From an uncultured Alphaproteobacteria bacterium (lineage in GTDB: Bacteria > Pseudomonadota > Alphaproteobacteria > RF32 > CAG-239): 64,000 bases of DNA. Below are positions 11,596-25,050 of this stretch, in pieces. How positions within the stretch are numbered: the first letter of the stretch is position 1; the number at the start of each line of letters is the position of its first letter. A program made the translations under genes and the position numbers. Location of the stretch: assembly GCA_949282205.1 (NCBI GenBank), contig CASDOS010000057.1:4037-68036 (forward strand), read 5' to 3'. Under the pieces are notes generated by a model. The model saw only the letters and a program-made list of their open reading frames with translations. It was not told the origin of the DNA and ran no database searches.

Positions 11596-11748
11596 TCTTT
11601 TTTTTGTTTTTTTAGGTTTGAAAGTGTAAAAAATACTCAAAAGAGTATATGTGACCGATAGAAAATTTAGTCTTTTTTAGGGAAATTTGTTACTGACAGA
11701 GTTTTCTGGAGGGAGAATGTTTATTGGGGACTTGTTGAAAAGTCCTAT

Positions 11749-12681
11749 TTATGCATGACGGAGTTTGAATACTCCGTCTTCGTAGCCTTGTATGCTTTTA
11801 TCGCTTTGTGCCATTTCCAATCTTTTTTCCGCCAATGCCACATACTCTTTTTCTCGCTCAATGCCTACATATCGACGCCCTAATTTGGCGGCAGTTACCG
11901 ATGTCGTGCCTGAACCTAAAAACGGATCAAAAACAACTTCCCCTTCGTTGCTCGAGGCTAAAATCAATTTGGCAATCAATTTTTCCGGCTTTTGGGTAGG
12001 GTGCGGTGTGTTTTCTGACATTGACCAAAACGGAATGGATATGTCGGTCCATAAATTTGATGGGGCTGTCAGGCGATATTTCTTTCCTTCTTCCTCATCG
12101 TCTTCCTGCCAGTCTTTCGGAATCCCGTTATCATCTTTGTACGGCGCTAAAACCGGGCGTTTTAATTTAACCGCATCTAAATTAAAGGTGTATTCACTTG
12201 ATTTAGTAAAAAACCAGATGTCTTCAATGCAGTTCTTCCAATTGTTGCCCGAACTGCGACCTTTTTCGCGTTCCCATGTTATTCTGTTTTTTAGTAGGAA
12301 ATATTTGCCGGCAATTTCCGGTATGGCTATGGATGTGTTCCAATCTGAGCAAATGTACAAACTGCCGTTCGGTTTTAAAGATATAAAAACTTCCGCAAGC
12401 CATTTATCCATCCATCGCTTGTAGTCGTTCCAATCCATCGATTTGAATTCTTTGGTGCCGAATTTTTTGGTTAGGTTATATGGGGGATCGACAACAACCA
12501 AATCCGCAAAATTTGCCGGTAAAAATTTTAGGGCTTCAAATGTATCTTGCCAGATGGTGCGGTTTAAAATTTCACTGACTTTTGCTTTTTTAGTCAGTGT
12601 TATCGCTTTTGATGAATATTCATCGACTTTTTCTGGGCTTAGTACAATGGTTTTGTTGCGGGGAGCCGGTGTCGATGTCAT
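11749..12681 (-). CDS. beta-class DNA methyltransferase (N6-adenine or N4-cytosine), orphan
   Basis: 310-aa ORF. The catalytic DPPYN motif comes before the SAM motif FDPFLGSGTT (beta-class order), and HPTQKP is present. It lacks the C-terminal extension of about 80 aa found in canonical CcrM. No restriction endonuclease gene is adjacent. Confidence 0.8.
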   Translation of the reverse strand: MTSTPAPRNKTIVLSPEKVDEYSSKAITLTKKAKVSEILNRTIWQDTFEALKFLPANFADLVVVDPPYNLTKKFGTKEFKSMDWNDYKRWMDKWLAEVFISLKPNGSLYICSDWNTSIAIPEIAGKYFLLKNRITWEREKGRSSGNNWKNCIEDIWFFTKSSEYTFNLDAVKLKRPVLAPYKDDNGIPKDWQEDDEEEGKKYRLTAPSNLWTDISIPFWSMSENTPHPTQKPEKLIAKLILASSNEGEVVFDPFLGSGTTSVTAAKLGRRYVGIEREKEYVALAEKRLEMAQSDKSIQGYEDGVFKLRHA

Positions 12682-12956
12682 TGATTTTCGCCAAACTTGT
12701 TATTTACGAGCTCGGTTAAATTGCTTATTGCTTGGGCGGCATCTTCACCGCTGGCACTTACTTTTATGGTTGTGCCTTTGACCGCGGCTAACATCATTAA
12801 ACCCATGATGGAATTCCCTTCTACCGTTTGACCAAGTCTTTCGACTTCTACTTCCGCGTTTAGTCCATCTATCGCTTTAACGAAACTGGCTGCGGCTCTG
12901 GCGTGTAATCCTCTTTCGTTTATTATATTTAATTCTACGCAGATTTTATCGCTCAT
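12678..12956 (-). CDS. ptsH: phosphocarrier protein HPr (NPr-type)
   Basis: 92-aa ORF. The GLHARAAA motif carries the active-site His, and the fold length is HPr-like. Its TGA stop overlaps the methyltransferase ATG (ATGA). Confidence 0.85.
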   Translation of the reverse strand: MSDKICVELNIINERGLHARAAASFVKAIDGLNAEVEVERLGQTVEGNSIMGLMMLAAVKGTTIKVSASGEDAAQAISNLTELVNNKFGENQ

Positions 12957-12958
12957 CT

Positions 12959-13357
12959 TTATTTTCCCAGTAATTCAGAGGCTATGGTGATATATTTAAT
13001 GCCGGCTTCTTTCGCTCCGCTTACCGCTTCTTTTAAGCCTTTTTCTTTACGCAGTGTATTCAGTTTTACCAACATTGGCAGATTGATACCCGCAATCACT
13101 TCCACTTTGGCTCTGTCCATTATTGATATCGCTAAATTTGACGGTGTGCCGCCGAACATGTCGGTCAATACGATAACTCCATCTCCGCTGTCTACGTTTT
13201 GTACTTTATTCAATATATCGTTGCGACGCTCGTTCATGTCGTCGTTGGGACCGATGCATGCGGTTTCTATTTGTTCCTGCGGACCGACGATGTGTTGCAT
13301 CGCAGATTTGAATTCTTCGGCCAGGCGACCGTGTGTGACCAACACTATTCCTATCAT
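12959..13357 (-). CDS. PTS EIIA component, mannose/fructose family
   Basis: 132-aa ORF. MIGIVLVTHGRLAEEF carries the phospho-His, and DMFGGTPSN is typical of EIIA-Man. Confidence 0.8.
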   Translation of the reverse strand: MIGIVLVTHGRLAEEFKSAMQHIVGPQEQIETACIGPNDDMNERRNDILNKVQNVDSGDGVIVLTDMFGGTPSNLAISIMDRAKVEVIAGINLPMLVKLNTLRKEKGLKEAVSGAKEAGIKYITIASELLGK

Positions 13358-14679: not shown

Positions 14680-16302
14680 TTATTCGCGATGGTAGGTAAT
14701 CATTAAACTGGTGTCGGCCAATATTACCGGCGTTACTTTTAATTTTTGCTTACTGCGCATTTTTAATGTAAATGGTGTGCAGGTGGTGATATGCTTTAAC
14801 ATGTCTTCTCTGAATGTTTGCCAGTCTTCCACTTCCGGCAACTTCTTCTTTTGTTTGTCCAGTATGTCGCGGATTGCCGGTGTGTCTTGTATTTCGGTTT
14901 CGGCTATTCCCCATAAACTTAAAAATGAACTGTTGTAGGTCTTGAGGCGTAAATTCGGTGTGAAGATAATTACAGAATCGTCAATGTTATCTAAAATGTC
15001 CCGCTGAACCGCAATTAAATCGCTTAGATGTCTTGCCGCCGCTAAACGGTCGGTTATATCTTCATAGGCGATAATCGTTCCGTCTGGATGGGGCGCACGA
15101 ATGCGGCGGAATGTTCTGCCGTCCGGTATATACAATAAATCTTCCTTTTGTTCGGTTAATGAATCGAAGGCCTTGTTTTCTTCATCTTTATAGGCTTTGA
15201 AATCCGATACTTCGGGTAGAGTCTTTTGCTCGCGAATCTTATCTAAAAACAGGTTGTAATGCGGTGGGTTGTCTAAAAAGTTATTCGGTAAATTCCATAA
15301 TTTCAAAAAAGCTGTGTTTCCGAATGTAAACTCGTGTTTCGTATTTATTATGCAAAATGCCGTGTCTAATGAGCTTAATATGTCTAAGTGCGTATCTAAG
15401 TGGACTTGATAATTACGTTTTACTTCGTCAAAACCCGTGATGTCTATTAATGAGCCGATGGTGTGGGAGGTCTTGAGTGACGAATCGTAGTAGGGGGTTT
15501 CCGTTATCTCATATTTCTTTAATTCACCGTTGTTTAGAATGTTGATTTGTTTTTTTTGCGGGGTGTTTGATTCTTTGGCGGTTTTGGCTAATTCCAATAA
15601 GTTTGAGGTGTTGCCTAAATCTCGTAATGTACTGTTTTCCGGCGTGATGTCTTTGAAATTTTTTAATCCTAATAAATTTAGGTATTGGCGGTTTAAAATT
15701 CGAATATTTAATGACGAATCTCGCAACCATATCGGATAGGGGAGATTGTCGATTAATATTCTGAAATCTTCAACCTCTTTGCGGCTTAATATGGCTTCTT
15801 CCGTTGCGCGGTCGATGAAATTGGTTTCTCGCGTGATATCTCTGAACCATAGACAGTTGCTGTTTATTTGCGAATCGGATGAGTTTATGCGTACTCCCGT
15901 TACGACAAAGGTTTTGTGATTGTTACCGTGGGCTAATACTTCGAAACTTAAACCAGTCTTTTTTAAATTATTGAACATTCCGTTTAGCTTTTCCGAATCG
16001 GTGCGGCTAAATGCCGAAAGTATTTCGTTTAGGGTGCTTTGTTCGCCGTTCGGTAAATTTAGCATGGTGGCTAAACGACGTGAACAGTATTGGTATTCTT
16101 TGTTCTTGTATATGGATAGAGTCAGGTAGCCGTCTTTTGAGGCGTACAGCATTTCTTCATAATGGCGCGTGGCGATGTCTTGTTTGGATAAATCGTTCTT
16201 CAGCTTGCGGTTGCGACGAATTAAAATGACAGCTAATAGCGGAAATACCAAACTTATTGATAGCCATATATACAGCAATGTTGTCAGTGTTTCTATTGTC
16301 AT
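14680..16302 (-). CDS. membrane-anchored multi-PAS-like sensor protein without a recognisable output domain
   Basis: 540-aa ORF with one N-terminal TM segment. Four segments of about 110 aa have PAS-like signatures (for example PYPIWLRDSSLNIRILNRQYLNLLGL and LDTAFCIINTKHEFTFGNTAFLKLWNL). I could find no H-box or HATPase motifs. Confidence 0.55.
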   Translation of the reverse strand: MTIETLTTLLYIWLSISLVFPLLAVILIRRNRKLKNDLSKQDIATRHYEEMLYASKDGYLTLSIYKNKEYQYCSRRLATMLNLPNGEQSTLNEILSAFSRTDSEKLNGMFNNLKKTGLSFEVLAHGNNHKTFVVTGVRINSSDSQINSNCLWFRDITRETNFIDRATEEAILSRKEVEDFRILIDNLPYPIWLRDSSLNIRILNRQYLNLLGLKNFKDITPENSTLRDLGNTSNLLELAKTAKESNTPQKKQINILNNGELKKYEITETPYYDSSLKTSHTIGSLIDITGFDEVKRNYQVHLDTHLDILSSLDTAFCIINTKHEFTFGNTAFLKLWNLPNNFLDNPPHYNLFLDKIREQKTLPEVSDFKAYKDEENKAFDSLTEQKEDLLYIPDGRTFRRIRAPHPDGTIIAYEDITDRLAAARHLSDLIAVQRDILDNIDDSVIIFTPNLRLKTYNSSFLSLWGIAETEIQDTPAIRDILDKQKKKLPEVEDWQTFREDMLKHITTCTPFTLKMRSKQKLKVTPVILADTSLMITYHRE

Positions 16303-16475
16303 TTTATTCTTTCCGTTTCTTCTTTCCGCGCGCAGCTCTGTACCGACGGGGTAAAAAATGCTTTTTTAAGTTTGAGGTTAAAATTTTCGGTTGTTTGTTT
16401 TTTTGTTTTATTATATAGCTAGTTCTATGATATTTGTTTGGCGATAGCAAATTAAAAATTGAAAGAGTGAACAAT

Positions 16476-17957: not shown

Positions 17958-18821
17958 ATGAATTGGTTAACTGATATTGTCAGACCCAAAATTAAGAAAA
18001 CAACCCCGAAAGAAATTTCTGATGATTTATGGGTTAAATGTCCGGAATGCGGGCAGATGCTCTTCTCTAAAGAGCTCAAACAGTCTATGTATGTTTGTAC
18101 TAAGTGCGGACATCATTTGCGCCTTTATGTTGATAAACGTTTAAAACAACTTTTTGATGACGGTATCTATTCCGAGATGATATTGCCCTCGGTTAAAGAA
18201 GATCCGTTGAAGTTTAAAGATACACAGCGTTATACAGACAGACTTAAAGTTTATCGCAAAAAAACGGGAAATAATGACGCAATTAAAGTCGGTACCGGTA
18301 AAGTTGCAGGTATAGATGCGGTGGTTGCCGCTATGGACTTCTCTTTTATGGGGGGATCTATGGGGACGGCTGTCGGTGAAGGAATTGTTGCCGCTGCCGA
18401 TTATGCGTATAATCATGATTGTCCCTTGATTATTGCCAGTGCTTCCGGTGGTGCGCGTATGCAGGAAGGTATGCTCTCTTTGATGCAAATGGCGCGGACT
18501 ACGGCGGCTATCAATCGGGTTAAAGAAAAAGGACTTCCTTATATCTCTATCTTTACAGACCCGACAACCGGTGGCGTTTCGGCTTCGTTTGCGATGATTG
18601 GTGATATTCATATTGCTGAAAAAGGTGCGATGATTGGTTTTGCCGGGAAACGCGTGATTGAGCAGACTATTCGCGAAAAACTGCCTGATGGTTTTCAAAC
18701 TGCTGAATATCTTAAAGAACATGGTATGGTCGATATTGTGGTTGAACGTAAAAACTTGAAAGAAACGGTTGATCGTGTTTTGACGCTTTTGTTGGCTAAT
18801 CGTAATAAAATAGCGGCGTAA
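17958..18821 (+). CDS. accD: acetyl-CoA carboxylase carboxyltransferase subunit beta
   Basis: 287-aa ORF with the N-terminal zinc ribbon CPECGQ...CTKCGHH and a carboxyltransferase domain (GGSMG, GGARMQEG). Confidence 0.9.
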   Translation: MNWLTDIVRPKIKKTTPKEISDDLWVKCPECGQMLFSKELKQSMYVCTKCGHHLRLYVDKRLKQLFDDGIYSEMILPSVKEDPLKFKDTQRYTDRLKVYRKKTGNNDAIKVGTGKVAGIDAVVAAMDFSFMGGSMGTAVGEGIVAAADYAYNHDCPLIIASASGGARMQEGMLSLMQMARTTAAINRVKEKGLPYISIFTDPTTGGVSASFAMIGDIHIAEKGAMIGFAGKRVIEQTIREKLPDGFQTAEYLKEHGMVDIVVERKNLKETVDRVLTLLLANRNKIAA

Positions 18822-18845
18822 TAGTGTTTGAAAGTATGGTGTTAA

Positions 18846-18872
18846 GGCGGGGTGTTTTAACTCCGCTTTTTT
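18846..18872 (+). terminator. intrinsic terminator of accD
   Basis: gcggggt gtttta actccgc followed by T6. Confidence 0.65.
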
Positions 18873-18952
18873 GTGATTATTTTATGAAAAAAACTTCACT
18901 TTTGTTAGTGTAGGATGTGTTTTTTGGGGGAGTAGAATGATGCAAAAATACC

Positions 18953-19028
18953 TACATTTTTTTGCCACAATAGTCAATACTTTTTTGTTGAGAAATTATG
19001 TGACTTTATTTTAGCAAAAAAAATGTAC
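18953..19028. repeat. inverted repeat, left copy (76 nt core)
   Basis: The reverse complement of 18953-19028 equals 24909-24983, except for an A8 versus T7 homopolymer length. Weaker similarity extends to 18941-19030. Confidence 0.9.
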
Positions 19029-19061
19029 ACTTAATTAATTCAATATATGAGGGGAATTAAA

Positions 19062-20366
19062 ATGAGTGTTTTAGATGATGTTTTAGCGGCATTGGATAAG
19101 CGCGATGTCAGCGATGATGAGATAAAAAATATGCTAAAAGCGGCTTCTGATTATGCGGAGGCTTTTTCTTCTAATGCGGAGGTTGCGGCTTTGTTTGAGC
19201 GCGTTCGTGATGCCGCGATGGCTAAGATGAATAATAAGGATGTGCGTTTTGATGAGAGTGGTAAACCGCTTGAAGGGTTTAATGTTGCTTATGATTTGGC
19301 GCAAAGGGGCGAACATGGCGGATTTGCCGATAGAAAGCCAATGGATGTTCTTGCTGAAATAGCGGATGTTAAAAATCGGGCAACGGCTTTGAATGCTGCG
19401 TCAACTTCTTATGACCATCAAGCGGTAGCTTCTGATTTGCTTAGAGCGACACATTGTGTTGAGCCTTCCAGTCCTGAAGTTTCGGTTAAAATGTTAAAGA
19501 TGGAAAAAGAATTATTTGATGGACTTAAAGGAAGCGGTCATAGTTTTGAGGCGGGAAAATCGCAATTGGAAATATATAATCACGCAGCTCGTTATTTTGG
19601 GGATGAAAAAGTGGCTGATGCATATATGGCCGGAGCAGATAAAGCGCTTTACAAAGTAAAAGGTTTGGATTTGGGAGCGGACGGTTTGGTTGAAAATACC
19701 ATGAAAAAATATACCGAAGTTGCGGCATTTCATCCTAAATATGCCGAAGAATGTTTTGACGCAGGAAAATACGTCATGAGAGAGGTTGGTAAGGAATTTT
19801 CCGATCCCGAATTTTTGAAACAAACTGCGCAAAATGTTGTTAATGTATATGATGCGTTGGCTAATAATCCTAGGGTGGATCCGAATATTAGAAAACAAGC
19901 TCAAAATGCCGGTGATTTACTTAAACGCAAGTATGCTTTAGATAAAGAAACGAATGCAATGGAAACGACCAGAAAAGTACAAAATTCGGTTAATGATAAG
20001 CAAAAAGCTCAGGATTTTGTTCAAAGTGGGAGAAGTTATAGCGGTGGAAATAATTTGTTTGATAGAGTTAAAAAGTTTGTTAAAGATGATTTTAAGAAAA
20101 CTTTTGAGTTTGCTCAGAATAATCCCAAAGCTCTTATGGGGGCAGGGGCTGCTGCTATGTTTACCGGTATGGGAACTGCAAATCCTGCTTTGGCGGCTGC
20201 GGGGGCTGCGATTATGACATATGGTTTTTGCAGACAACAGATTGCTAAGGTGAAACAAAAAATGAATCCTGCTCAAGAAACAACAGAGGTGCTTAAACAA
20301 AATAAAAAATTTGAAAAAGTATTTGACGGACAGATGTTTAATAAATCAAAGCAAGGAGGCAGATGA
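19062..20366 (+). CDS. hypothetical helical protein with a C-terminal Gly/Ala-zipper hydrophobic segment
   Basis: The ORF is open from 19047. The ATG at 19062 sits 8 nt after GAGGGG. Predicted mostly alpha-helical by composition. The only hydrophobic stretch is ALMGAGAAAMFTGMGTANPALAAAGAAIMTYGF (nt 20130-20228). No family recognised. Confidence 0.55.
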   Translation: MSVLDDVLAALDKRDVSDDEIKNMLKAASDYAEAFSSNAEVAALFERVRDAAMAKMNNKDVRFDESGKPLEGFNVAYDLAQRGEHGGFADRKPMDVLAEIADVKNRATALNAASTSYDHQAVASDLLRATHCVEPSSPEVSVKMLKMEKELFDGLKGSGHSFEAGKSQLEIYNHAARYFGDEKVADAYMAGADKALYKVKGLDLGADGLVENTMKKYTEVAAFHPKYAEECFDAGKYVMREVGKEFSDPEFLKQTAQNVVNVYDALANNPRVDPNIRKQAQNAGDLLKRKYALDKETNAMETTRKVQNSVNDKQKAQDFVQSGRSYSGGNNLFDRVKKFVKDDFKKTFEFAQNNPKALMGAGAAAMFTGMGTANPALAAAGAAIMTYGFCRQQIAKVKQKMNPAQETTEVLKQNKKFEKVFDGQMFNKSKQGGR

Positions 20367-20367
20367 T

Positions 20368-20718
20368 ATGGAGCAGAAAATAGTCGGCGATTGTGTGTTT
20401 TATGTCCGAGATGGTGAAGTTGCTGTAGAAACGGCGGAAATAGCGGGAAAAATTAAGAGTGCGCTTTATGATGGGCGCAATACGCTTTTGATGATTGATG
20501 AAAATAAAGTTATCTGGTTGTTGCGGAATATTGTTTTGGAGGTCAGAAACGTATTGGTAAAGGCGGATAAACTTTTTGTTATTAAACGTGATGAAAAAAA
20601 TGATGTTGCAGGTGGTTATTTTGTCAGGCTCGATGTAAAGGAAAGTCTTGAGTATAAAGACGATTTTGCCGAAAATTGTTGCGATGTTTATACTCTTGTT
20701 GAGGGGATGAATGAATAA
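20368..20718 (+). CDS. hypothetical small cytoplasmic protein, tightly coupled to the upstream gene
   Basis: The ORF track starts at 20311. The ATG at 20368 follows AAGGAGG and sits 1 nt after the upstream TGA stop. 116 aa. No family recognised. Confidence 0.55.
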   Translation: MEQKIVGDCVFYVRDGEVAVETAEIAGKIKSALYDGRNTLLMIDENKVIWLLRNIVLEVRNVLVKADKLFVIKRDEKNDVAGGYFVRLDVKESLEYKDDFAENCCDVYTLVEGMNE

Positions 20719-20868
20719 GAAACTTTTTTAGCTTGAAAACTGTTTTCTTAAAAAAATAATGAACAAATAAATCCAAATCTCGTTATATTTAAATGTTGAA
20801 AAATTGTTTAAATTAAGGTATGGTGCATACATACCTGTAAATATGTATATTTAATTTGCGAGGTTTGA

Positions 20869-21210
20869 ATGTTTAAAAAAATTGGTTTGATGATGACGGT
20901 TGCACTTTTGCTTTGCGGAAAAGCGCAGGCGGCCGATACGGCTAAAGTTTATATTGATCAAAACGGTAATGTCGTGGCTCAGGAAATTTATGTGCCTCAA
21001 ACTTTTGAAACAAAACAGGTTACAACGACAACGGTAGAAACTCAGCCGGTGGTGGTGCAACGAGTGGTTACAACTTCTTGTTCAAACGGATGTCGCGCAA
21101 GTTGTCATGATTGCGTTGTTCCGGCGTATGTTCATCATCCGAGATTGTTTCGTCCGTTTAAACCCTATCATCCACGCTATCCGCGTCATCATGGTTGGAG
21201 GCATTTCTAA
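20869..21210 (+). CDS. small secreted protein with a His/Pro/Arg-rich C-terminal tail
   Basis: 113-aa ORF. Signal peptide MFKKIGLMMTVALLLCGKAQA, a T/V/Q-rich middle, and the tail HHPRLFRPFKPYHPRYPRHHGWRHF. Confidence 0.6.
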   Translation: MFKKIGLMMTVALLLCGKAQAADTAKVYIDQNGNVVAQEIYVPQTFETKQVTTTTVETQPVVVQRVVTTSCSNGCRASCHDCVVPAYVHHPRLFRPFKPYHPRYPRHHGWRHF

Positions 21211-21665
21211 AGGATAAAAGTGTTGTGACGATAAATCATAAAAAATATATCAATTTTTTGACGGTTTTAACGTGGTGCTTATGCAGTATCACGTTTCAAT
21301 CGTCTTGGGCGAATAGCTATGTCGAGATGATTACGACGCCGCCGGCGCAGAGTGCGAATTCTCAATCGGTGATTTATGCTGATGAAGTTTATGTGGTGCA
21401 ACAACCAACTTATGTGCAGGTTGAACCGCAAGCTGTGAATATGCAATATTCTAAAATTTCCGGCGCCCCAATAACCTCCTCTCCGGTGGTTACTTCATCT
21501 TATCCTAAATATGTGGCATGGCGGAATGCGCAAAATAATAGTTGTTGTTATGTTCATGACGGTGTGCAAAATCTGATTTATTTTATCGGTGGGGCAGTTG
21601 CAGGTCGGATTGCATACGATATTTGGGGACCGCATCATAGGCATCACTTGTTGGATCATTGGTAG
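21195..21665 (+). CDS. small secreted protein with a His-rich C-terminus (probable paralog of the preceding gene)
   Basis: 156-aa ORF. An alternative GTG start at 21225 lies after AAGGA. Signal-like segment FLTVLTWCLCSITFQSSWA, a Q/V/P-rich middle, and the C-terminus WGPHHRHHLLDHW. Confidence 0.55.
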   Translation: MEAFLKDKSVVTINHKKYINFLTVLTWCLCSITFQSSWANSYVEMITTPPAQSANSQSVIYADEVYVVQQPTYVQVEPQAVNMQYSKISGAPITSSPVVTSSYPKYVAWRNAQNNSCCYVHDGVQNLIYFIGGAVAGRIAYDIWGPHHRHHLLDHW

Positions 21666-21732
21666 TTTTTTTATGTTTTTTCGGCTTTGTTTGGTGTAAT
21701 TTGGCGGCAAGACTTGACTTAATCGTTTTTAA

Positions 21733-21768
21733 GACCTAAATCTATTTCAGGTCAGTTTTTTTTATTTT
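21733..21768 (+). terminator. intrinsic terminator
   Basis: gacct-N11-aggtc hairpin followed by T8. Confidence 0.45.
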
Positions 21769-21781
21769 TTAAGAGGGTATT

Positions 21782-22372
21782 ATGAGTGCCGAAAATGATG
21801 ATGTAAAAAATAAACAGTTTGAAAATGAAACAGAAAATGTCAATGCTTCTGAAGATGTTGCGCAAAATGTAGAAAGCGGTGATGATGGGGCTTCAGAAGG
21901 AGTGGCTAAGGAGGCTTCGGATGAGGGACGCGATAAATTAGAAAAAGATTTTGCGAAACTTAAAGATGATTATATCCGTTTGTATGCCGAAATGGATAAT
22001 ATGAAGAAAAGAGCTCATCTGGAAAGCGAAAAGACCATTAAATTTGCCGTTTCTTCTTTTGCAAAGGAACTTTTGGGGGTTGCAGATAATCTGGAAAGAG
22101 CTATTGCGGCGATGGGAGATAATAAAGAATCTTGCGCGGAACTCTTAAAAGGTGTGGAATTAACTCAAAATGAATTAACGAAAGTTTTTGAAAAATTCGG
22201 CATTAAACGCTTTAACCATATTGGCGAAAAATTTGATCCGAATTTTGAGCGTGTTGTTCAAGAAATTGAAGATAAAAAGGCTAAAAGCGGGGTTATTTTG
22301 GCAGAGCTGCAGGCCGGTTATACTATTCATGATCGTATCTTGCGCGAGGCGATGGTTATTGTCGCTAAATAG
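21782..22372 (+). CDS. grpE: nucleotide exchange factor GrpE
   Basis: 196-aa ORF. Acidic N-terminus, then DYIRLYAEMDNMKKR and the C-terminal GYTIHDRILREAMV typical of GrpE. Confidence 0.9.
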   Translation: MSAENDDVKNKQFENETENVNASEDVAQNVESGDDGASEGVAKEASDEGRDKLEKDFAKLKDDYIRLYAEMDNMKKRAHLESEKTIKFAVSSFAKELLGVADNLERAIAAMGDNKESCAELLKGVELTQNELTKVFEKFGIKRFNHIGEKFDPNFERVVQEIEDKKAKSGVILAELQAGYTIHDRILREAMVIVAK

Positions 22373-22401
22373 TTTTTTGCTACATCGGGAGATTGTCTTT
22401 A

Positions 22402-22430
22402 GCGGTGTCATTTGTTGACGCCGCTTTTTT
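22402..22430 (+). terminator. intrinsic terminator of grpE
   Basis: gcggtgtca tttgt tgacgccgc followed by T6. Confidence 0.7.
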
Positions 22431-22445
22431 GTGTGTTTTAAAATA

Positions 22446-22473
22446 TTGACAAAAAAGCAAAGCGTGCTATTTT
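22446..22473 (+). promoter_or_regulatory. cassette promoter of array member 1
   Basis: TTGACA (22446-22451), 16-nt spacer, TATTTT (22468-22473). Preceded by the conserved GTGTGTTTTAAAATA. Confidence 0.55.
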
Positions 22474-22506
22474 TTTTTCAGAAAGAAATTATTATAACTA
22501 AAATTT

Positions 22507-23262
22507 ATGACTATGGGAAATTATGAAAAACAAATTGCTGATTTATGTCATAAAATGATGACAGAGCAGTTTTTAGATTATTTGAATCAATGTGGATGCG
22601 AACTCGGTTATCCGTTTGTTATGTATTCAGACGGTGAATGCGGAAAAGGACTGGTTTCTTCGGATGGTAAACACAATGCCGTATTGAAAGTCTTGGGCTC
22701 GTTTAAAGATAATGCTAAAGTTGACGGAATTAAGAAACAGAGAATAAAGGAGAATTCAGTTTCGCTTTCTTCTGTTGATGAGCAAAGATTAAAAAATATT
22801 TTGAGTATTATTCAAGAAGGTAAACATAAACTTCTTTCTGCTGATGATGAATGTTTTTTAATTTTGAAGGGGACTTTTAGACTGTTTATTTTGTATCTTA
22901 ATGAGGTGTGCGCACTTAGCTTCTCGGCTTTTAAAATTATTATCGACGAGGATAAATTAGTTTATTTTGCAGCTTATATTGGAATGGTTACAGAACTTAG
23001 AGATGACGAAGTAGATTATATTTTAGATAAGGCATCTAAGGAAATTATGATGATTATGTTTGTTTCTTCTTCTTTTTTAGGTTTTTCCGAAGAACAAGAA
23101 AAAAAACTTGTTGATAGTCATCGACTGGATTTGCTGACTGTGTATGACGGTGCGTATGTATTCGAAAAAAAAACGTGGTCCTATTTGAGAAATTTAGCGC
23201 AAACAGATCCAGAACTTAAAAAATGGCTTGATGATAGATTGCCATATGATAAAAAGCTATAA
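22507..23262 (+). CDS. array member 1 of a novel paralog family (FLxYLNxCG-GYPF-NGECGK module)
   Basis: 251-aa ORF. The N-terminal module is QFLDYLNQCGCELGYPFVMYSDGECGKGLVSSDGKHNAVLKVLGSFKDNAKV. The C-terminal region is homologous to members 2 and 5. No signal peptide or TM segment. Confidence 0.65.
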   Translation: MTMGNYEKQIADLCHKMMTEQFLDYLNQCGCELGYPFVMYSDGECGKGLVSSDGKHNAVLKVLGSFKDNAKVDGIKKQRIKENSVSLSSVDEQRLKNILSIIQEGKHKLLSADDECFLILKGTFRLFILYLNEVCALSFSAFKIIIDEDKLVYFAAYIGMVTELRDDEVDYILDKASKEIMMIMFVSSSFLGFSEEQEKKLVDSHRLDLLTVYDGAYVFEKKTWSYLRNLAQTDPELKKWLDDRLPYDKKL

Positions 23263-23294
23263 TCCTGATAGAGTTTGTTTATTTGATTTTATCA

Positions 23295-23323
23295 GCAGGG
23301 TTCTTCGGAACTCTGCTTTTTTT
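23295..23323 (+). terminator. intrinsic terminator (conserved copy)
   Basis: gcagggttc ttcg gaactctgc followed by T7. An identical hairpin lies at 24169-24197. Confidence 0.75.
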
Positions 23324-23338
23324 GTGCGTTTTAAAATG

Positions 23339-23366
23339 TTGACAAAAATGTATACTGTGCTAATTT
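23339..23366 (+). promoter_or_regulatory. cassette promoter of array member 2
   Basis: TTGACA (23339-23344), 16-nt spacer, TAATTT (23361-23366). Confidence 0.55.
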
Positions 23367-23406
23367 TCTCTCAGAAAGAAATTATTGTAACTAAAATTTA
23401 TGGCTT

Positions 23407-24123
23407 ATGGAAAATTATGATGCAAATGTATCCGTTGCGACGGGGCAATTTTTGAATTATTTAAATGTATGTGGACGAAAACTTGGTTATCCTTTTCTGC
23501 TGTATTCTAACGGAGAATGCGGGAAAAAACTGGTTTCTTCTGATAGTAAGCACAATGCTGTGGCAAAGGTTTTTATGTCTTGCGGTGTTACGGAGATGTT
23601 GCAAACATCTGCGATTTCGGCTGTTGAACATGATACCATTGAGGCATCTGGCGGCGAAGATTTTTTGAGATACTTAAACAAATGTGCGCCAAATATAGGC
23701 TTTCCGTTTGTCATTTTGACTGATGGCAGAATTTTGAAAAGTTCATTTTTAACAAATGAAGAGAAAAAAATGGTTGTTGTTAAAGTTTTGCGCGCTTTTG
23801 TAAACGATGCCAAATTGCTTGGTGTTGTAGAGGATGTTTCTTTGAAAGAGAAATGTGAAAAATCTGATACCGATGAGGCTTTTTTAGAACTTAAAGCGAT
23901 TATCGATGATGATGATTTGGAGCGTTTTGAAAAGTTGAGCAACGTTAATCATCAGATGAAGATGTATATTTTAACTAATGCATCTAGAAAGATATTGATG
24001 TTCTTTTTGCGCCATTGTAAACCTAATAGCTTGACTCTGGAAGAGATGGATTTGCTGTGGATTAAAAACGATTTGGAGCTTTTGGATGCCTATTACTGGT
24101 GGGTTCGTGTTCCTGGTAAATAA
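23407..24123 (+). CDS. array member 2 of the novel paralog family (two N-terminal modules)
   Basis: 238-aa ORF. The first module (nt 23446-23574) is about 90% identical to member 3. A second, diverged copy of the module lies at nt 23662-23814 (FLRYLNKCAPNIGFPFVILTDG...VVKVLRAFVNDAK). Confidence 0.65.
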   Translation: MENYDANVSVATGQFLNYLNVCGRKLGYPFLLYSNGECGKKLVSSDSKHNAVAKVFMSCGVTEMLQTSAISAVEHDTIEASGGEDFLRYLNKCAPNIGFPFVILTDGRILKSSFLTNEEKKMVVVKVLRAFVNDAKLLGVVEDVSLKEKCEKSDTDEAFLELKAIIDDDDLERFEKLSNVNHQMKMYILTNASRKILMFFLRHCKPNSLTLEEMDLLWIKNDLELLDAYYWWVRVPGK

Positions 24124-24168
24124 ACGCTATTTTTAGGGCAGATGCAAATTTTATTTTAATGATTATCG

Positions 24169-24197
24169 GCAGGGTTCTTCGGAACTCTGCTTTTTTT
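24169..24197 (+). terminator. intrinsic terminator (conserved copy)
   Basis: gcagggttc ttcg gaactctgc followed by T7. Confidence 0.75.
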
Positions 24198-24212
24198 GTG
24201 TGTTTTAAAATG

Positions 24213-24240
24213 TTGACAAAAAAACAAAGCGTGCTAATTT
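24213..24240 (+). promoter_or_regulatory. cassette promoter of array member 3
   Basis: TTGACA (24213-24218), 16-nt spacer, TAATTT (24235-24240). Confidence 0.55.
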
Positions 24241-24280
24241 TCTCTCAGAAAGAAATTATTGTAACTAAAATTTATGGCTT

Positions 24281-24925
24281 ATGGAAAATTATGATGCAAA
24301 TGTATCCGTTGCGACGGGGCAATTTTTGAATTATTTAAATGTATGTGGACGAAAACTTGGCTATCCGTTTATGCTGTATTCTAACGGAGAATGCGGGAAA
24401 AAACTGGTTTCTTCTGACGGTAAGCACAATGCGGTTGCGAAGGTTTTACACCCGTTTCAGCTTGACTGTGGTATTGAAATGCCTCTCAACTCCGAGCTGC
24501 CTTTTGGAATGGCTTTTGATATTCCAACCGATGAAGACGAAAGAAAGTTATGCGATATCTATAATCGTATTTTACGAAAAGAAACGCTTTCGGAGCAGCA
24601 AGAGTCTCTGTTGTGTCGCTTCGGTACGGGCGATGCCATCAGTCAATACGACTATGCCGGCGAGTTGTGTCTTTCTGCTTTTACAGAGCTTGTTAAACGT
24701 GATGATTTTCTGTTGTTTAATACGGCTTATTTGTGTAATACTTCGTTGAGAGGTTTTTGGACAGAGTATCAGGAGAATTCTTTGTATGAAATTAAAGAAG
24801 TTTATTTGGCTCGAAATGCGTCTAAAAACTTCGTGTTTAATTATCTGAGAACCGGAAGTCGGATGTCGTTTACACCAAAATTTAAAGAAGAAGTGCAAAA
24901 ACGAAAACGTACATTTTTTTGCTAA
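24281..24925 (+). CDS. array member 3 of the novel paralog family, 3'-truncated at the inverted-repeat boundary
   Basis: 214-aa ORF. Homologous to member 4 up to ...EEVQKRKR (member 4 has ...IELVKRRD). The last codons (TFFC, stop) read into the repeat at 24909 onward. About 45 C-terminal residues are missing relative to member 4. Confidence 0.6.
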   Translation: MENYDANVSVATGQFLNYLNVCGRKLGYPFMLYSNGECGKKLVSSDGKHNAVAKVLHPFQLDCGIEMPLNSELPFGMAFDIPTDEDERKLCDIYNRILRKETLSEQQESLLCRFGTGDAISQYDYAGELCLSAFTELVKRDDFLLFNTAYLCNTSLRGFWTEYQENSLYEIKEVYLARNASKNFVFNYLRTGSRMSFTPKFKEEVQKRKRTFFC

Positions 24926-24983
24926 AATAAAGTCACATAATTTCTCAACAAAAAAGTATTGACTATTGTGGCAAAAAAATGTA
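24909..24983. repeat. inverted repeat, right copy (75 nt core)
   Basis: The reverse complement matches 18953-19028. It contains a TTGACT box facing member 4. Confidence 0.9.
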
Positions 24984-25050
24984 CGGATTTGCATGGCGAC
25001 GATGTTGATTTTTATTTTGATTTTGGTTTCTAATTTAAAATTTGTAATTT

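What the first reader, a model, noticed from the sequence alone, without database searches (positions are those of the whole stretch)
18941..24993. Near-perfect 75/76-nt inverted repeats bracket a 5.9-kb segment containing grpE and half of the accessory islet
Seen: the reverse complement of 18953-19028 is identical to 24909-24983, apart from one homopolymer length difference (A8 versus T7). Weaker similarity extends about 10 nt outward on each side. The enclosed 5,880 bp carry the 439-aa ORFan and its partner, the two His-tail secreted proteins, grpE and array members 1-3. The repeat is more conserved than the duplicated array genes, which are about 90-95% identical. So the repeat is either very recent or homogenised by recombination. 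It contains a TTGACT box facing outward (toward member 4 on the right, and toward the accD terminator on the left). No recombinase or transposase is present in the window. Inference: this is a substrate for, or footprint of, a homologous-recombination inversion, or an inverted duplication of the member-4 upstream region. Because the two ends are symmetric, flipping would not obviously rewire promoters.
Basis: partly seen in the sequence, partly recalled or inferred. Interest (0 to 1): 0.65.

Follow-up and report, generated by a model that had tools for sequence, protein, structure and literature searches.

The report
Small hairpin sequence copied once, inverted
The two "inverted repeats" are an old 76-base hairpin-forming stretch in front of one gene plus a rare, recent, precise copy of it inserted backwards 5.9 kb away inside the end of another gene; this is an ordinary small insertion event, not a gene-flipping switch.

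Summary
18953-19028 and 24909-24984 are reverse complements and differ only in one homopolymer (A8 versus T7). The interpretation needs changing.

- **Each arm is a hairpin element.** It is A+T-rich, about 71 nt, has roughly 22-nt terminal inverted repeats (5'-CA...TG-3') and is flanked by TA.
- **The left arm is the resident original.** It lies directly upstream of the 434-aa gene in every strain that has that gene. Related species carry a same-length orthologous stretch there that does not fold into the long hairpin.
- **The right arm is a strain-private insertion.** A strain 99.4% identical over the locus has a clean empty site (...AAAAC|GTAC|GGATTTG). The filled site carries exactly 72 extra nt with GTAC (TA) duplicated. 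Array member 3 now ends ...KRKRTFFC* instead of ...KRKRTDLHGDDVDFYFDFGF. Only 2 of 10 protein variants on record show this.
- **It is not a dispersed repeat.** There are two copies in 84 kb of this strain and one copy in three k=31 assemblies of other strains. Public collections gave none.
- **No inversion is seen.** Gene order is the same in one-copy strains, the two-copy strain and sister species, and the window encodes no recombinase or transposase.

Best mechanism: MITE-like, TA-duplicating transposition in trans (confidence about 0.45). Main rival: a replication template switch (about 0.3). Interest is low to moderate.

The parts
18953..19028 (+). Left (resident, source) copy of the hairpin element. 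The core CA...TG is 18955-19025 and is flanked by TA at 18953-54 and 19026-27. The A-run 19016-19023 is A8 here and A7 in other strains.
   Evidence: Present, and identical apart from the A-run length (A8 or A7), in every strain that has the 434-aa gene. Related species have an orthologous stretch of the same length.
24909..24984 (-). Right (new) copy in inverted orientation. The core is 24912-24981. Relative to the empty allele, 72 nt are inserted.
   Evidence: Present in the window, L001/L132 and L133. Absent from L002 and L007, which show a clean empty site.
24909..24912 (.). First GTAC of the duplicated target (central TA at 24910-11).
   Evidence: The empty site ...CGAAAAC GTAC GGATTTG... 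in L002 and L007 against the filled site in the window and L001.
24981..24984 (.). Second GTAC of the duplicated target (central TA at 24982-83).
24281..24925 (+). Array member 3. The insertion rewrites its 3' end: the last 15 residues DLHGDDVDFYFDFGF are replaced by FFC and a stop codon that lies inside the element.
   Evidence: P0047 and P0041 against P0040, P0042, P0043, P0046, P0048 and P0049.
19062..20366 (+). The 434-aa gene of unknown function (439 aa if counted from the ATG at 19047). The left copy ends 34 nt before its start codon, after the accD terminator.
   Evidence: only 17 homologues among 5.8 billion clusters; no Pfam match.
18844..18869 (+). Terminator-like hairpin of accD, which sets the upstream limit of the intergenic region that holds the left copy.
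25051..25767 (+). Array member 4, whose start lies 66 nt downstream of the right copy. In strains without the insertion, member 3 stops 18 nt before member 4 starts.
   Evidence: (L002 genes 11627-12307 and 12325-13041).
18941..18952 (+). Outer flank of the left copy (TGCAAAAATACC). It resembles the outer flank of the right copy at 24985-24996 (GGATTTGCATGG on the + strand).
   Evidence: The right-hand flank is present before insertion.

Best explanation
The inverted repeat is one short hairpin-forming sequence present twice.

Shown:
- The left copy is the resident original. It sits between the accD terminator and the 434-aa gene in all strains that carry that gene. It descends from an orthologous, same-length, weakly palindromic stretch seen in related species.
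- The right copy is a rare, recent, precise duplicate of exactly the palindromic unit. It is inserted in inverted orientation at a GTAC (central TA) in the last codons of array member 3, it duplicates that target, and it truncates the protein.
- No inversion has taken place.

Inferred:
- The copy was made by a transposase supplied in trans from outside the window, acting on the element's terminal inverted repeats, as for a MITE. A TA-duplicating DDE enzyme of the IS630/Tc1-mariner type fits the ends best (5'-CA...TG-3', TA flanks, palindromic NTAN target).
- The source copy was kept, and the new copy landed nearby by local hopping.
- The resulting 75-bp inverted pair is a by-product. It could at most support rare RecA-dependent inversion.
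For: - Anatomy: the unit is about 71 nt, non-coding and A+T-rich, with 22-nt terminal inverted repeats (91% complementary), 5'-CA...TG-3' ends and TA on both sides of both copies. These are the four structural features the review PMC2229807 lists for most bacterial MITE-like repeats.
- Insertion: L002 and L007 hold the empty site and the window and L001 the filled site. The difference is exactly 72 nt, with GTAC/TA duplicated and flanks identical.
- Recency and rarity: L002 is 99.4% identical to the window and lacks the copy, while L001 is 99.98% identical and has it. Only 2 of 10 member-3 protein variants end in the element-encoded FFC*.
- Direction of copying: the left copy is present in all 10 strain loci that carry the 434-aa gene and has orthologues in L155, L156 and L157.
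- Conserved termini: TACNTTTTTTTG...AAAAAAANGTA is kept across species while the interior diverges (62-75% identity against about 90% in the flanks). Position 4 pairs as A-T in the window and C-G in L155.
- No inversion: gene order and orientation are identical in all loci.
- IS630 inserts at CTAG and duplicates TA. This rests on my own knowledge and was not checked here.
Against: - No transposase or matching full-length IS was found in the window or in 84 kb of the same scaffold.
- The element is not multi-copy. Logan contigs contain each 31-mer only once per accession (PMC12424806). Three Logan contigs (L002, L007, L008) run straight through the left copy, so those strains have a single copy.
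- The source copy is orthologous to non-hairpin sequence of the same length in related species. This is unusual for a MITE and requires an ancient insertion whose ends stayed usable.
- Searches of other collections found nothing, but two were weak tests. The genome-collection pattern was too loose. The organism appears to be absent from the JGI metagenome set. Viral contigs, plasmids and phages also gave nothing.
- The duplication can equally be read as 4-nt microhomology, and one flank already resembled the source flank. Both points suit the template-switch rival.
Confidence: 0.45

Rival explanations
1. A replication template switch (microhomology-mediated templated insertion), with no transposase. 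While the right-hand site was being copied, a nascent strand ending ...AAATCCGTAC mispaired with ...AAATACCTAC next to the resident hairpin 5.9 kb away. It copied through the palindrome. Because a palindrome ends as it begins (...TGTAC), the strand then re-annealed at the original GTAC and carried on. The outcome is one inverted copy of exactly the hairpin unit.
For: - The insert is the reverse complement of a nearby single-copy sequence.
- Junction homologies are GTAC on one side and 8 of 10 nt, plus a shared 7-mer, on the other. Both were present before the insertion.
- The element is single-copy in other strains and no further copies or transposase were found.
- Hairpins stall replication forks, and template switching is known to create reverse-complement copies and to extend stems (PMC8794818; PMC7202029 and PMC13100816, abstracts).
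- The tandem gene array around the target already shows copy-number change between strains.
Against: - Documented template-switch mutations usually copy from within tens to hundreds of bases, not 5.9 kb. This rests on my own knowledge.
- Two precise switches are needed.
- The flank similarity is a post hoc statistic, and total flank matches are not significant (p = 0.52).
- The neat TIR, TA and CA...TG architecture would then be coincidental.
Confidence: 0.3
2. Mobilisation as single-stranded DNA by a hairpin-recognising HUH/Y1 enzyme (IS200/IS605 TnpA or a REP-associated RAYT). The element would insert 3' of the tetranucleotide NTAC without a true target duplication.
For: - The whole element is a hairpin.
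- Both copies have NTAC immediately 5' of ATTTTTTT and end in GTAC.
- The junction is also consistent with insertion 3' of GTAC of a unit that ends in GTAC.
Against: - No Y1 transposase was found in the window or in 84 kb of scaffold.
- REP and REPIN families are normally tens to hundreds of copies, often with GTAG heads and G+C-rich stems (abstract of PMC2817692, plus my own knowledge). Here there are one or two copies and an A+T-rich stem.
- IS200/IS605 ends are asymmetric subterminal hairpins, not one element-wide palindrome (my own knowledge).
Confidence: 0.07
3. One reading: the pair marks, or drives, inversion of the 5.9-kb grpE segment by homologous or site-specific recombination, as a switch or as a footprint.
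For: Two 75-bp identical inverted arms 5.9 kb apart are long enough for occasional RecA-dependent recombination (my own knowledge).
Against: - The second arm is absent from most strains, yet the segment has the same orientation with one arm, with two arms, and in three related species. The present arrangement is therefore ancestral and not a product of inversion.
- No recombinase is present.
- The ends are symmetric and carry no detectable promoter.
- Inversion would turn grpE and its neighbours against the strand bias suggested by the uniformly positive GC skew.
Confidence: 0.04
4. The hairpin is a functional cis-element, such as an operator, a 5'-UTR structure or a terminator-like RNA hairpin. 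On this reading the second copy was retained because it rewires expression of array members 3 and 4.
For: - The left copy fills the only space for a promoter or 5' UTR of the 434-aa gene, between the accD terminator and the ribosome-binding site.
- The terminal palindrome is conserved across three species, with one compensatory pair.
- The right copy places a hairpin of -28 kcal/mol between two genes that are otherwise 18 nt apart.
Against: - This says how the copy might act, not how it arose.
- The long hairpin is absent from the orthologues.
- The copy is rare in the population, it destroys the C-terminus of member 3, and it has no T-tract or promoter signature.
Confidence: 0.1

Closest known systems
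Bacterial MITEs that duplicate TA (Neisseria Correia elements; pneumococcal RUP, linked to IS630-Spn1)
   Same: The element is under 200 bp, non-coding and A+T-rich. It has terminal inverted repeats, TA at its termini and a target duplication, folds as a whole-element hairpin, inserts next to or inside genes, and shows filled and empty sites between close strains (feature list in PMC2229807).
   Different: Those families have tens to hundreds of copies (RUP has 108). This element has one copy in most strains and two here. No cognate IS or transposase was identified. The source copy is orthologous to non-hairpin sequence in sister species.
Template-switch (quasipalindrome-associated) mutations and templated insertions
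   Same: A reverse-complement copy of nearby sequence, a hairpin at the source, and microhomology at both junctions (PMC8794818, PMC7202029).
   Different: The source and target are 5.9 kb apart rather than within or adjacent to a single quasipalindrome. The copied unit coincides exactly with a TIR-bounded element.
Rickettsia palindromic elements (RPE)
   Same: Small palindromic repeats of an alphaproteobacterial-type genome that can land inside protein-coding genes (PMC2229807). One frame of this element is open throughout (my own translation of the sequence).
   Different: RPEs are multi-copy and insert in frame, adding a peptide. Here the insertion is in the orientation that brings a stop after three codons.
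Invertible DNA segments (fim, hin or Bacteroides-type invertons)
   Same: Inverted repeats bracket a segment.
   Different: Invertons have short repeats (roughly 10-35 bp), an invertase gene nearby, a promoter inside and both orientations present in a population (my own knowledge). Here there is no recombinase, no promoter signal, a single orientation, and one arm is missing in most strains.
REP/REPIN elements mobilised by RAYT
   Same: Hairpin-forming, extragenic and of similar length to a REPIN doublet.
   Different: REPs usually occur at more than 100 copies per genome and are associated with a Y1 transposase (abstract of PMC2817692). Neither feature is seen here.

Membership tests
MITE (non-autonomous TIR element) | Short (under about 300 bp) and without coding capacity of its own | tested here: met
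   The unit is 71-72 nt.
MITE (non-autonomous TIR element) | Terminal inverted repeats | tested here: met
   22-nt arms, 91% complementary (I8). In the right copy the arms form a continuous terminal stem (MFE fold).
MITE (non-autonomous TIR element) | Target-site duplication shown by comparing filled and empty sites | tested here: met
   GTAC (central TA) occurs once in L002 and L007 and twice in the window and L001. No clean empty site exists for the left copy.
MITE (non-autonomous TIR element) | Several dispersed copies in the genome | tested here: not met
   Two copies in 84 kb of this strain. Single copy in three Logan k=31 assemblies. None elsewhere in 555 kb of related loci. The whole genome was not available.
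MITE (non-autonomous TIR element) | A cognate autonomous IS or transposase with matching terminal repeats | not testable with these tools
   None in the window or scaffold. The rest of the genome could not be reached.
Site-specific invertible segment (inverton) | Recombinase or invertase gene at or near the segment | tested here: not met
   No recombinase, integrase or invertase Pfam family hits any gene of the window.
Site-specific invertible segment (inverton) | Both orientations observed | tested here: not met
   Every assembly has the same orientation. Read-level data were not available, and only one strain lineage has both arms.
Template-switch / templated insertion | The insert is a reverse-complement copy of nearby sequence, with microhomology at the switch points | tested here: met
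   (GTAC on one side; 8 of 10 nt on the other).
Template-switch / templated insertion | Source and target lie within a short range (the same or an adjacent quasipalindrome) | tested here: not met
   The two sites are 5,891 nt apart.
REP/REPIN-RAYT | High copy number and an associated Y1 (RAYT) transposase | tested here: not met
   One or two copies. No Y1_Tnp family hit.
Rickettsia palindromic element | In-frame insertion that extends the host protein | tested here: not met
   A stop codon follows three element-encoded codons (FFC*).

The most novel reading that the evidence does not exclude
A single-copy, lineage-specific hairpin in a gene's upstream region has begun to copy itself and has been caught at the step from one copy to two. 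There are two versions. In one, a MITE is being born from resident DNA whose ends happen to be, or have evolved to be, usable by a transposase. In the other, a long-range (5.9 kb) transposase-independent template switch copies exactly one palindrome because a palindrome supplies its own return microhomology. Either version would be a documented natural example of how small palindromic repeat families start.
Probability: 0.2. Interest if true: 0.55.

Novelty: new member of a known kind. Interest (0 to 1): 0.27.

Why it matters
The practical value is as a correction. The repeat pair is not evidence for a grpE-containing invertible segment or for a mobile islet. It is a strain-private 72-nt insertion that truncates one paralogue of a variable gene array.

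The insertion marks one strain lineage of an unnamed, low-G+C gut-metagenome bacterium with alphaproteobacterial-type gene order. It also creates a 75-bp inverted pair that breaks k=31 assemblies (L133).

The wider point is modest. The source is a single-copy sequence with non-hairpin orthologues in sister species. If a closed genome confirms that, the locus would be a clean natural case for asking how small palindromic repeats originate, by transposase capture or by template switching.

Tried and rejected
1. **Genome-contig scan** with ACATTTTTTTGC-N{40,60}-GCAAAAAAA. The pattern was too loose.
2. **Metagenome-contig scan** with the 20-mer GCCACAATAGTCAATACTTT. It returned two chance matches with no other similarity. 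The organism seems to be absent from that collection.
3. **Protein search with the element's three open frames joined**, meant to catch ORFs elsewhere that run into copies. It found nothing.
4. **Viral contigs**, **plasmids** and **phages**. Only sub-significant A+T-rich matches.
5. **Rfam** at gathering thresholds over the whole window. No hits, so the element is not a known RNA family.
6. **Composite transposon bounded by the two copies.** Rejected. The enclosed genes, including grpE, are syntenic in species and strains that lack the right copy.
7. **Left copy arriving together with the 434-aa/116-aa gene pair.** L005 lacks w18810-20750, but this is a recombinant patch carrying the allele of a sister species (L149) that has no such genes. 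The gene pair is old at this locus (L155, L156, L158). There is no clean empty site for the left copy.
8. **A single template-switch event as the origin of the left hairpin** from the ancestral sequence. By eye, neither arm of the window's element is a simple reverse complement of the other arm of the L156/L155 sequence. The question stays open.
9. **Integron attC.** Rejected, because the ends lack the RYYYAAC/GTTRRRY core sites (sequence).
10. **Naming the organism.** Cluster look-ups returned no names.

Full report
**1.

- The arms 18946-19022 and 24914-24990 are 97% complementary over 77 nt without gaps, with 5,891 nt between them.
- Read base by base, rc(18953-19028) equals 24909-24983 except for one homopolymer, A8 versus T7.
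- A 29-nt probe finds only these two sites in the window, against 0 of 100 shuffles.
- The A-run of the left copy is polymorphic: A8 in the window and L002, A7 in L006 and L010. The right copy is 100% identical over 75 nt to the A7 allele.

**2. Each arm is itself a hairpin element**

- The unit has 22-nt terminal inverted repeats (GTACATTTTTTTGCyAmAATA, 91% complementary) around a 34-nt centre that also partly pairs (I8).
- Folding as RNA gives -28.2 and -25.3 kcal/mol for the two strands of the right copy (z = -6.0 and -5.4). As DNA, the left core gives -10.2 kcal/mol (z = -2.7).
- With TA taken as the flank, the core is 5'-CA...TG-3'. It spans 71 nt on the left (18955-19025) and 70 nt on the right (24912-24981).
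- Rfam has no match anywhere in the window.

**3. The right copy is a recent, precise and rare insertion**

- Exact-protein look-ups retrieved the same locus from other metagenome assemblies.
- L001 is essentially the same strain as the window (99.98% identical). L002 is 99.4% identical.
- L002 and L007 lack the right copy and show a clean empty site...CGAAAAC-GTAC-GGATTTG... The window and L001 have the same flanks with exactly 72 extra nt and GTAC on both sides.
- The insertion lies in the last codons of array member 3. The tail ...KRKRTDLHGDDVDFYFDFGF becomes ...KRKRTFFC*.
- Of the 10 member-3 protein variants in the 15-billion-protein collection, only two carry the FFC tail. They are P0041 from ENA scaffold_806 and P0047 from a 68,405-nt NCBI contig, which is evidently the source of the window. 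Of the other eight, seven keep an uninterrupted C-terminal tail; P0044 is truncated upstream by a frameshift.
- The Logan contig L133 begins 31 nt inside the right copy. That is what a k=31 graph does when a sequence occurs twice.

**4. The left copy is the resident original**

- It is present in all ten strain loci that carry the 434-aa gene, identical apart from the A-run length (A8 or A7). It lies between the accD terminator (18844-18869) and the gene's ribosome-binding site.
- Related species with a 434-aa orthologue at the same place are L156/L157 (94% protein identity) and L155 (87%).
- In those species a stretch of the same length (76-77 nt) sits between conserved flanks, AAAAATAyCTAC... 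and ...GTACACTTAATTnATnCAATAT.
- The interior of that stretch is 62-75% identical between species, against about 90% for the flank. It does not fold into the long hairpin (z = +0.3 and -0.7).
- Only the terminal palindrome TACNTTTTTTTG...AAAAAAANGTA is shared. Position 4 pairs as A-T in the window, as C-G in L155, and is mismatched (C/T) in L156.
- The four species are roughly equidistant, at 85-93% nucleotide identity in accD, the 434-aa gene, grpE and lptF.
- A more distant relative, L158 (48% protein identity), has the gene pair at the same locus but a different upstream region.
- The left element is therefore old at this site. Its extended palindromy is specific to the window's species.

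**5. It is not a dispersed repeat**

- There are two copies in 84 kb of the strain's scaffold (window plus L137 and L160).
- A search for pairs of the terminal repeats across 555 kb of strain and genus loci found only the known sites and the L156/L157 orthologue.
- In Logan assemblies all 31-mers within an accession's contigs are distinct by construction (PMC12424806). Contigs L002 (49 kb), L007 and L008 run uninterrupted through the left copy, so the element is single-copy in those samples.
- Public-collection searches found nothing. Two of them were weak tests, as set out under what was tried.

**6. No inversion, and no recombinase**

- The order accD > 434-aa gene > 116-aa gene > 113 > 146 > grpE > array > lptF > lptD has the same orientation in one-copy strains, in the two-copy strain and in L155, L156 and L158.
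- The species that lack the 434-aa/116-aa gene pair (L149-L154) keep the remaining genes in the same order.
- No transposase, integrase or invertase Pfam family hits any gene of the window.
The promoter scan reports nothing in either copy.

**7. Mechanism**

The following points are shown:
- a duplicative, inverted, precise insertion of the hairpin unit at GTAC/TA;
- the direction of copying, from left to right;
- that the insertion is recent and rare.

The following is inferred. The structure matches the usual description of bacterial MITE-like repeats: under 200 bp, TIRs, terminal TA, A+T-rich and a target duplication (PMC2229807). The CA...TG ends, the TA duplication and the palindromic NTAN target are what an IS630/Tc1-type enzyme would give (my own knowledge). 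I therefore rank transposition in trans first, at about 0.45.

Three facts weigh against it:
- the copy number is one to two;
- no transposase is visible;
- the source has same-length orthologues that do not form the hairpin.

The main rival, at about 0.3, is a replication template switch. The strand being made at the right-hand site ends ...AAATCCGTAC. The resident site reads ...AAATACCTAC immediately before the hairpin, a match of 8 out of 10 with a shared ATGCAAA 7-mer just upstream (post hoc p of about 0.007). A palindrome ends with the same bases it starts with, so after copying through it the strand ends ...TGTAC and can re-anneal at the original GTAC. That would give exactly the observed product. 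Template switching is known to create and extend stems (PMC8794818; PMC13100816 and PMC7202029, abstracts). The 5.9-kb distance is its weak point.

Mobilisation by an HUH/Y1 enzyme (about 0.07) and an inversion switch (about 0.04) are minor alternatives.

**8. Consequences (inferred, none tested)**

- Member 3 loses its last 15 residues.
- A stable hairpin now sits between members 3 and 4, which are otherwise 18 nt apart.
- A 75-bp perfect inverted pair now brackets 5.9 kb and could support rare RecA-dependent inversion.

**9. Verdict**

The feature is real and correctly described, but it is ordinary in kind: a small TIR-bounded hairpin insertion that is polymorphic between strains. It is not an invertible segment. 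The one unusual aspect is that the source is a single-copy resident sequence.

Noticed in passing
window 22400-26450: Tandem array of paralogous genes with no Pfam match: 251, 238, 214 and 238 aa plus fragments of 69 and 102 aa. They share an N-terminal motif, LNxxGxxLGYPFxxxSNGECGKxLVSSDGKHNAV. Members 1-3 each have a promoter-like TTGACA-N16-TATTTT upstream, and terminator-like hairpins precede members 1-3. The unit is about 874 bp. Member number and length differ between strains and species (L002: 251/226/238/180; L149: 237/233/154).
   Followed up: partly
window 18810-20775; L005 8457-8610; L149 8853-9010: Strain L005 is otherwise 99.5-99.9% identical to the window. Here it carries a patch almost identical to the allele of an 85%-identical sister species, which lacks the 434-aa and 116-aa genes and the hairpin. 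This looks like inter-species homologous replacement that removed the gene pair.
   Followed up: partly
window 19062-20718: The 434-aa and 116-aa gene pair has no Pfam match and only 17 homologues among 5.8 billion protein clusters. All those examined lie between accD and grpE in relatives (L155, L156, L158). It is therefore a lineage-restricted but old resident pair, not a recent import.
   Followed up: partly
L158 5957-5987: In a distant relative, the homologous 422-aa gene is preceded by a perfect operator-like palindrome, GTACAATTATAA-N7-TTATAATTGTAC, directly upstream of its ribosome-binding site. It also begins and ends with GTAC.
   Followed up: no
outside the window, about 3.8 kb upstream of its start (ends of L138-L140, L145 and L146; L137 about 16000-16360): An imperfect short tandem repeat, roughly 24-26 nt per unit (e.g. 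AAACGCCTGCCGCCCGAACCAACACC), lies beyond rplQ. Several Logan and MEGAHIT contigs from different samples all break there.
   Followed up: no
window 1-64000: No tRNA genes (ARAGORN) and no Rfam family at gathering score in 64 kb.
   Followed up: no
window 23464-23569 and 24330-24386 against L001: L001 comes from an independent ENA assembly of essentially the same strain. It lacks 106 nt and 57 nt inside array members 2 and 3, which frameshifts them. This may be real microheterogeneity or an assembly collapse between 94%-identical paralogues.
   Followed up: no
L134-L136 (accD about 80% identical to the window): In this more distant relative, grpE is followed by four unannotated genes and then adhE. 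The lptF-lptD-surA-ksgA block that follows the array in the window is not between them, so the neighbourhood downstream of grpE has been rearranged between genera.
   Followed up: no
window 20869-21665: Two small predicted secreted proteins (113 and 156 aa) with His/Arg/Pro-rich C-terminal tails and no Pfam match. They are conserved next to grpE in all related species examined.
   Followed up: no
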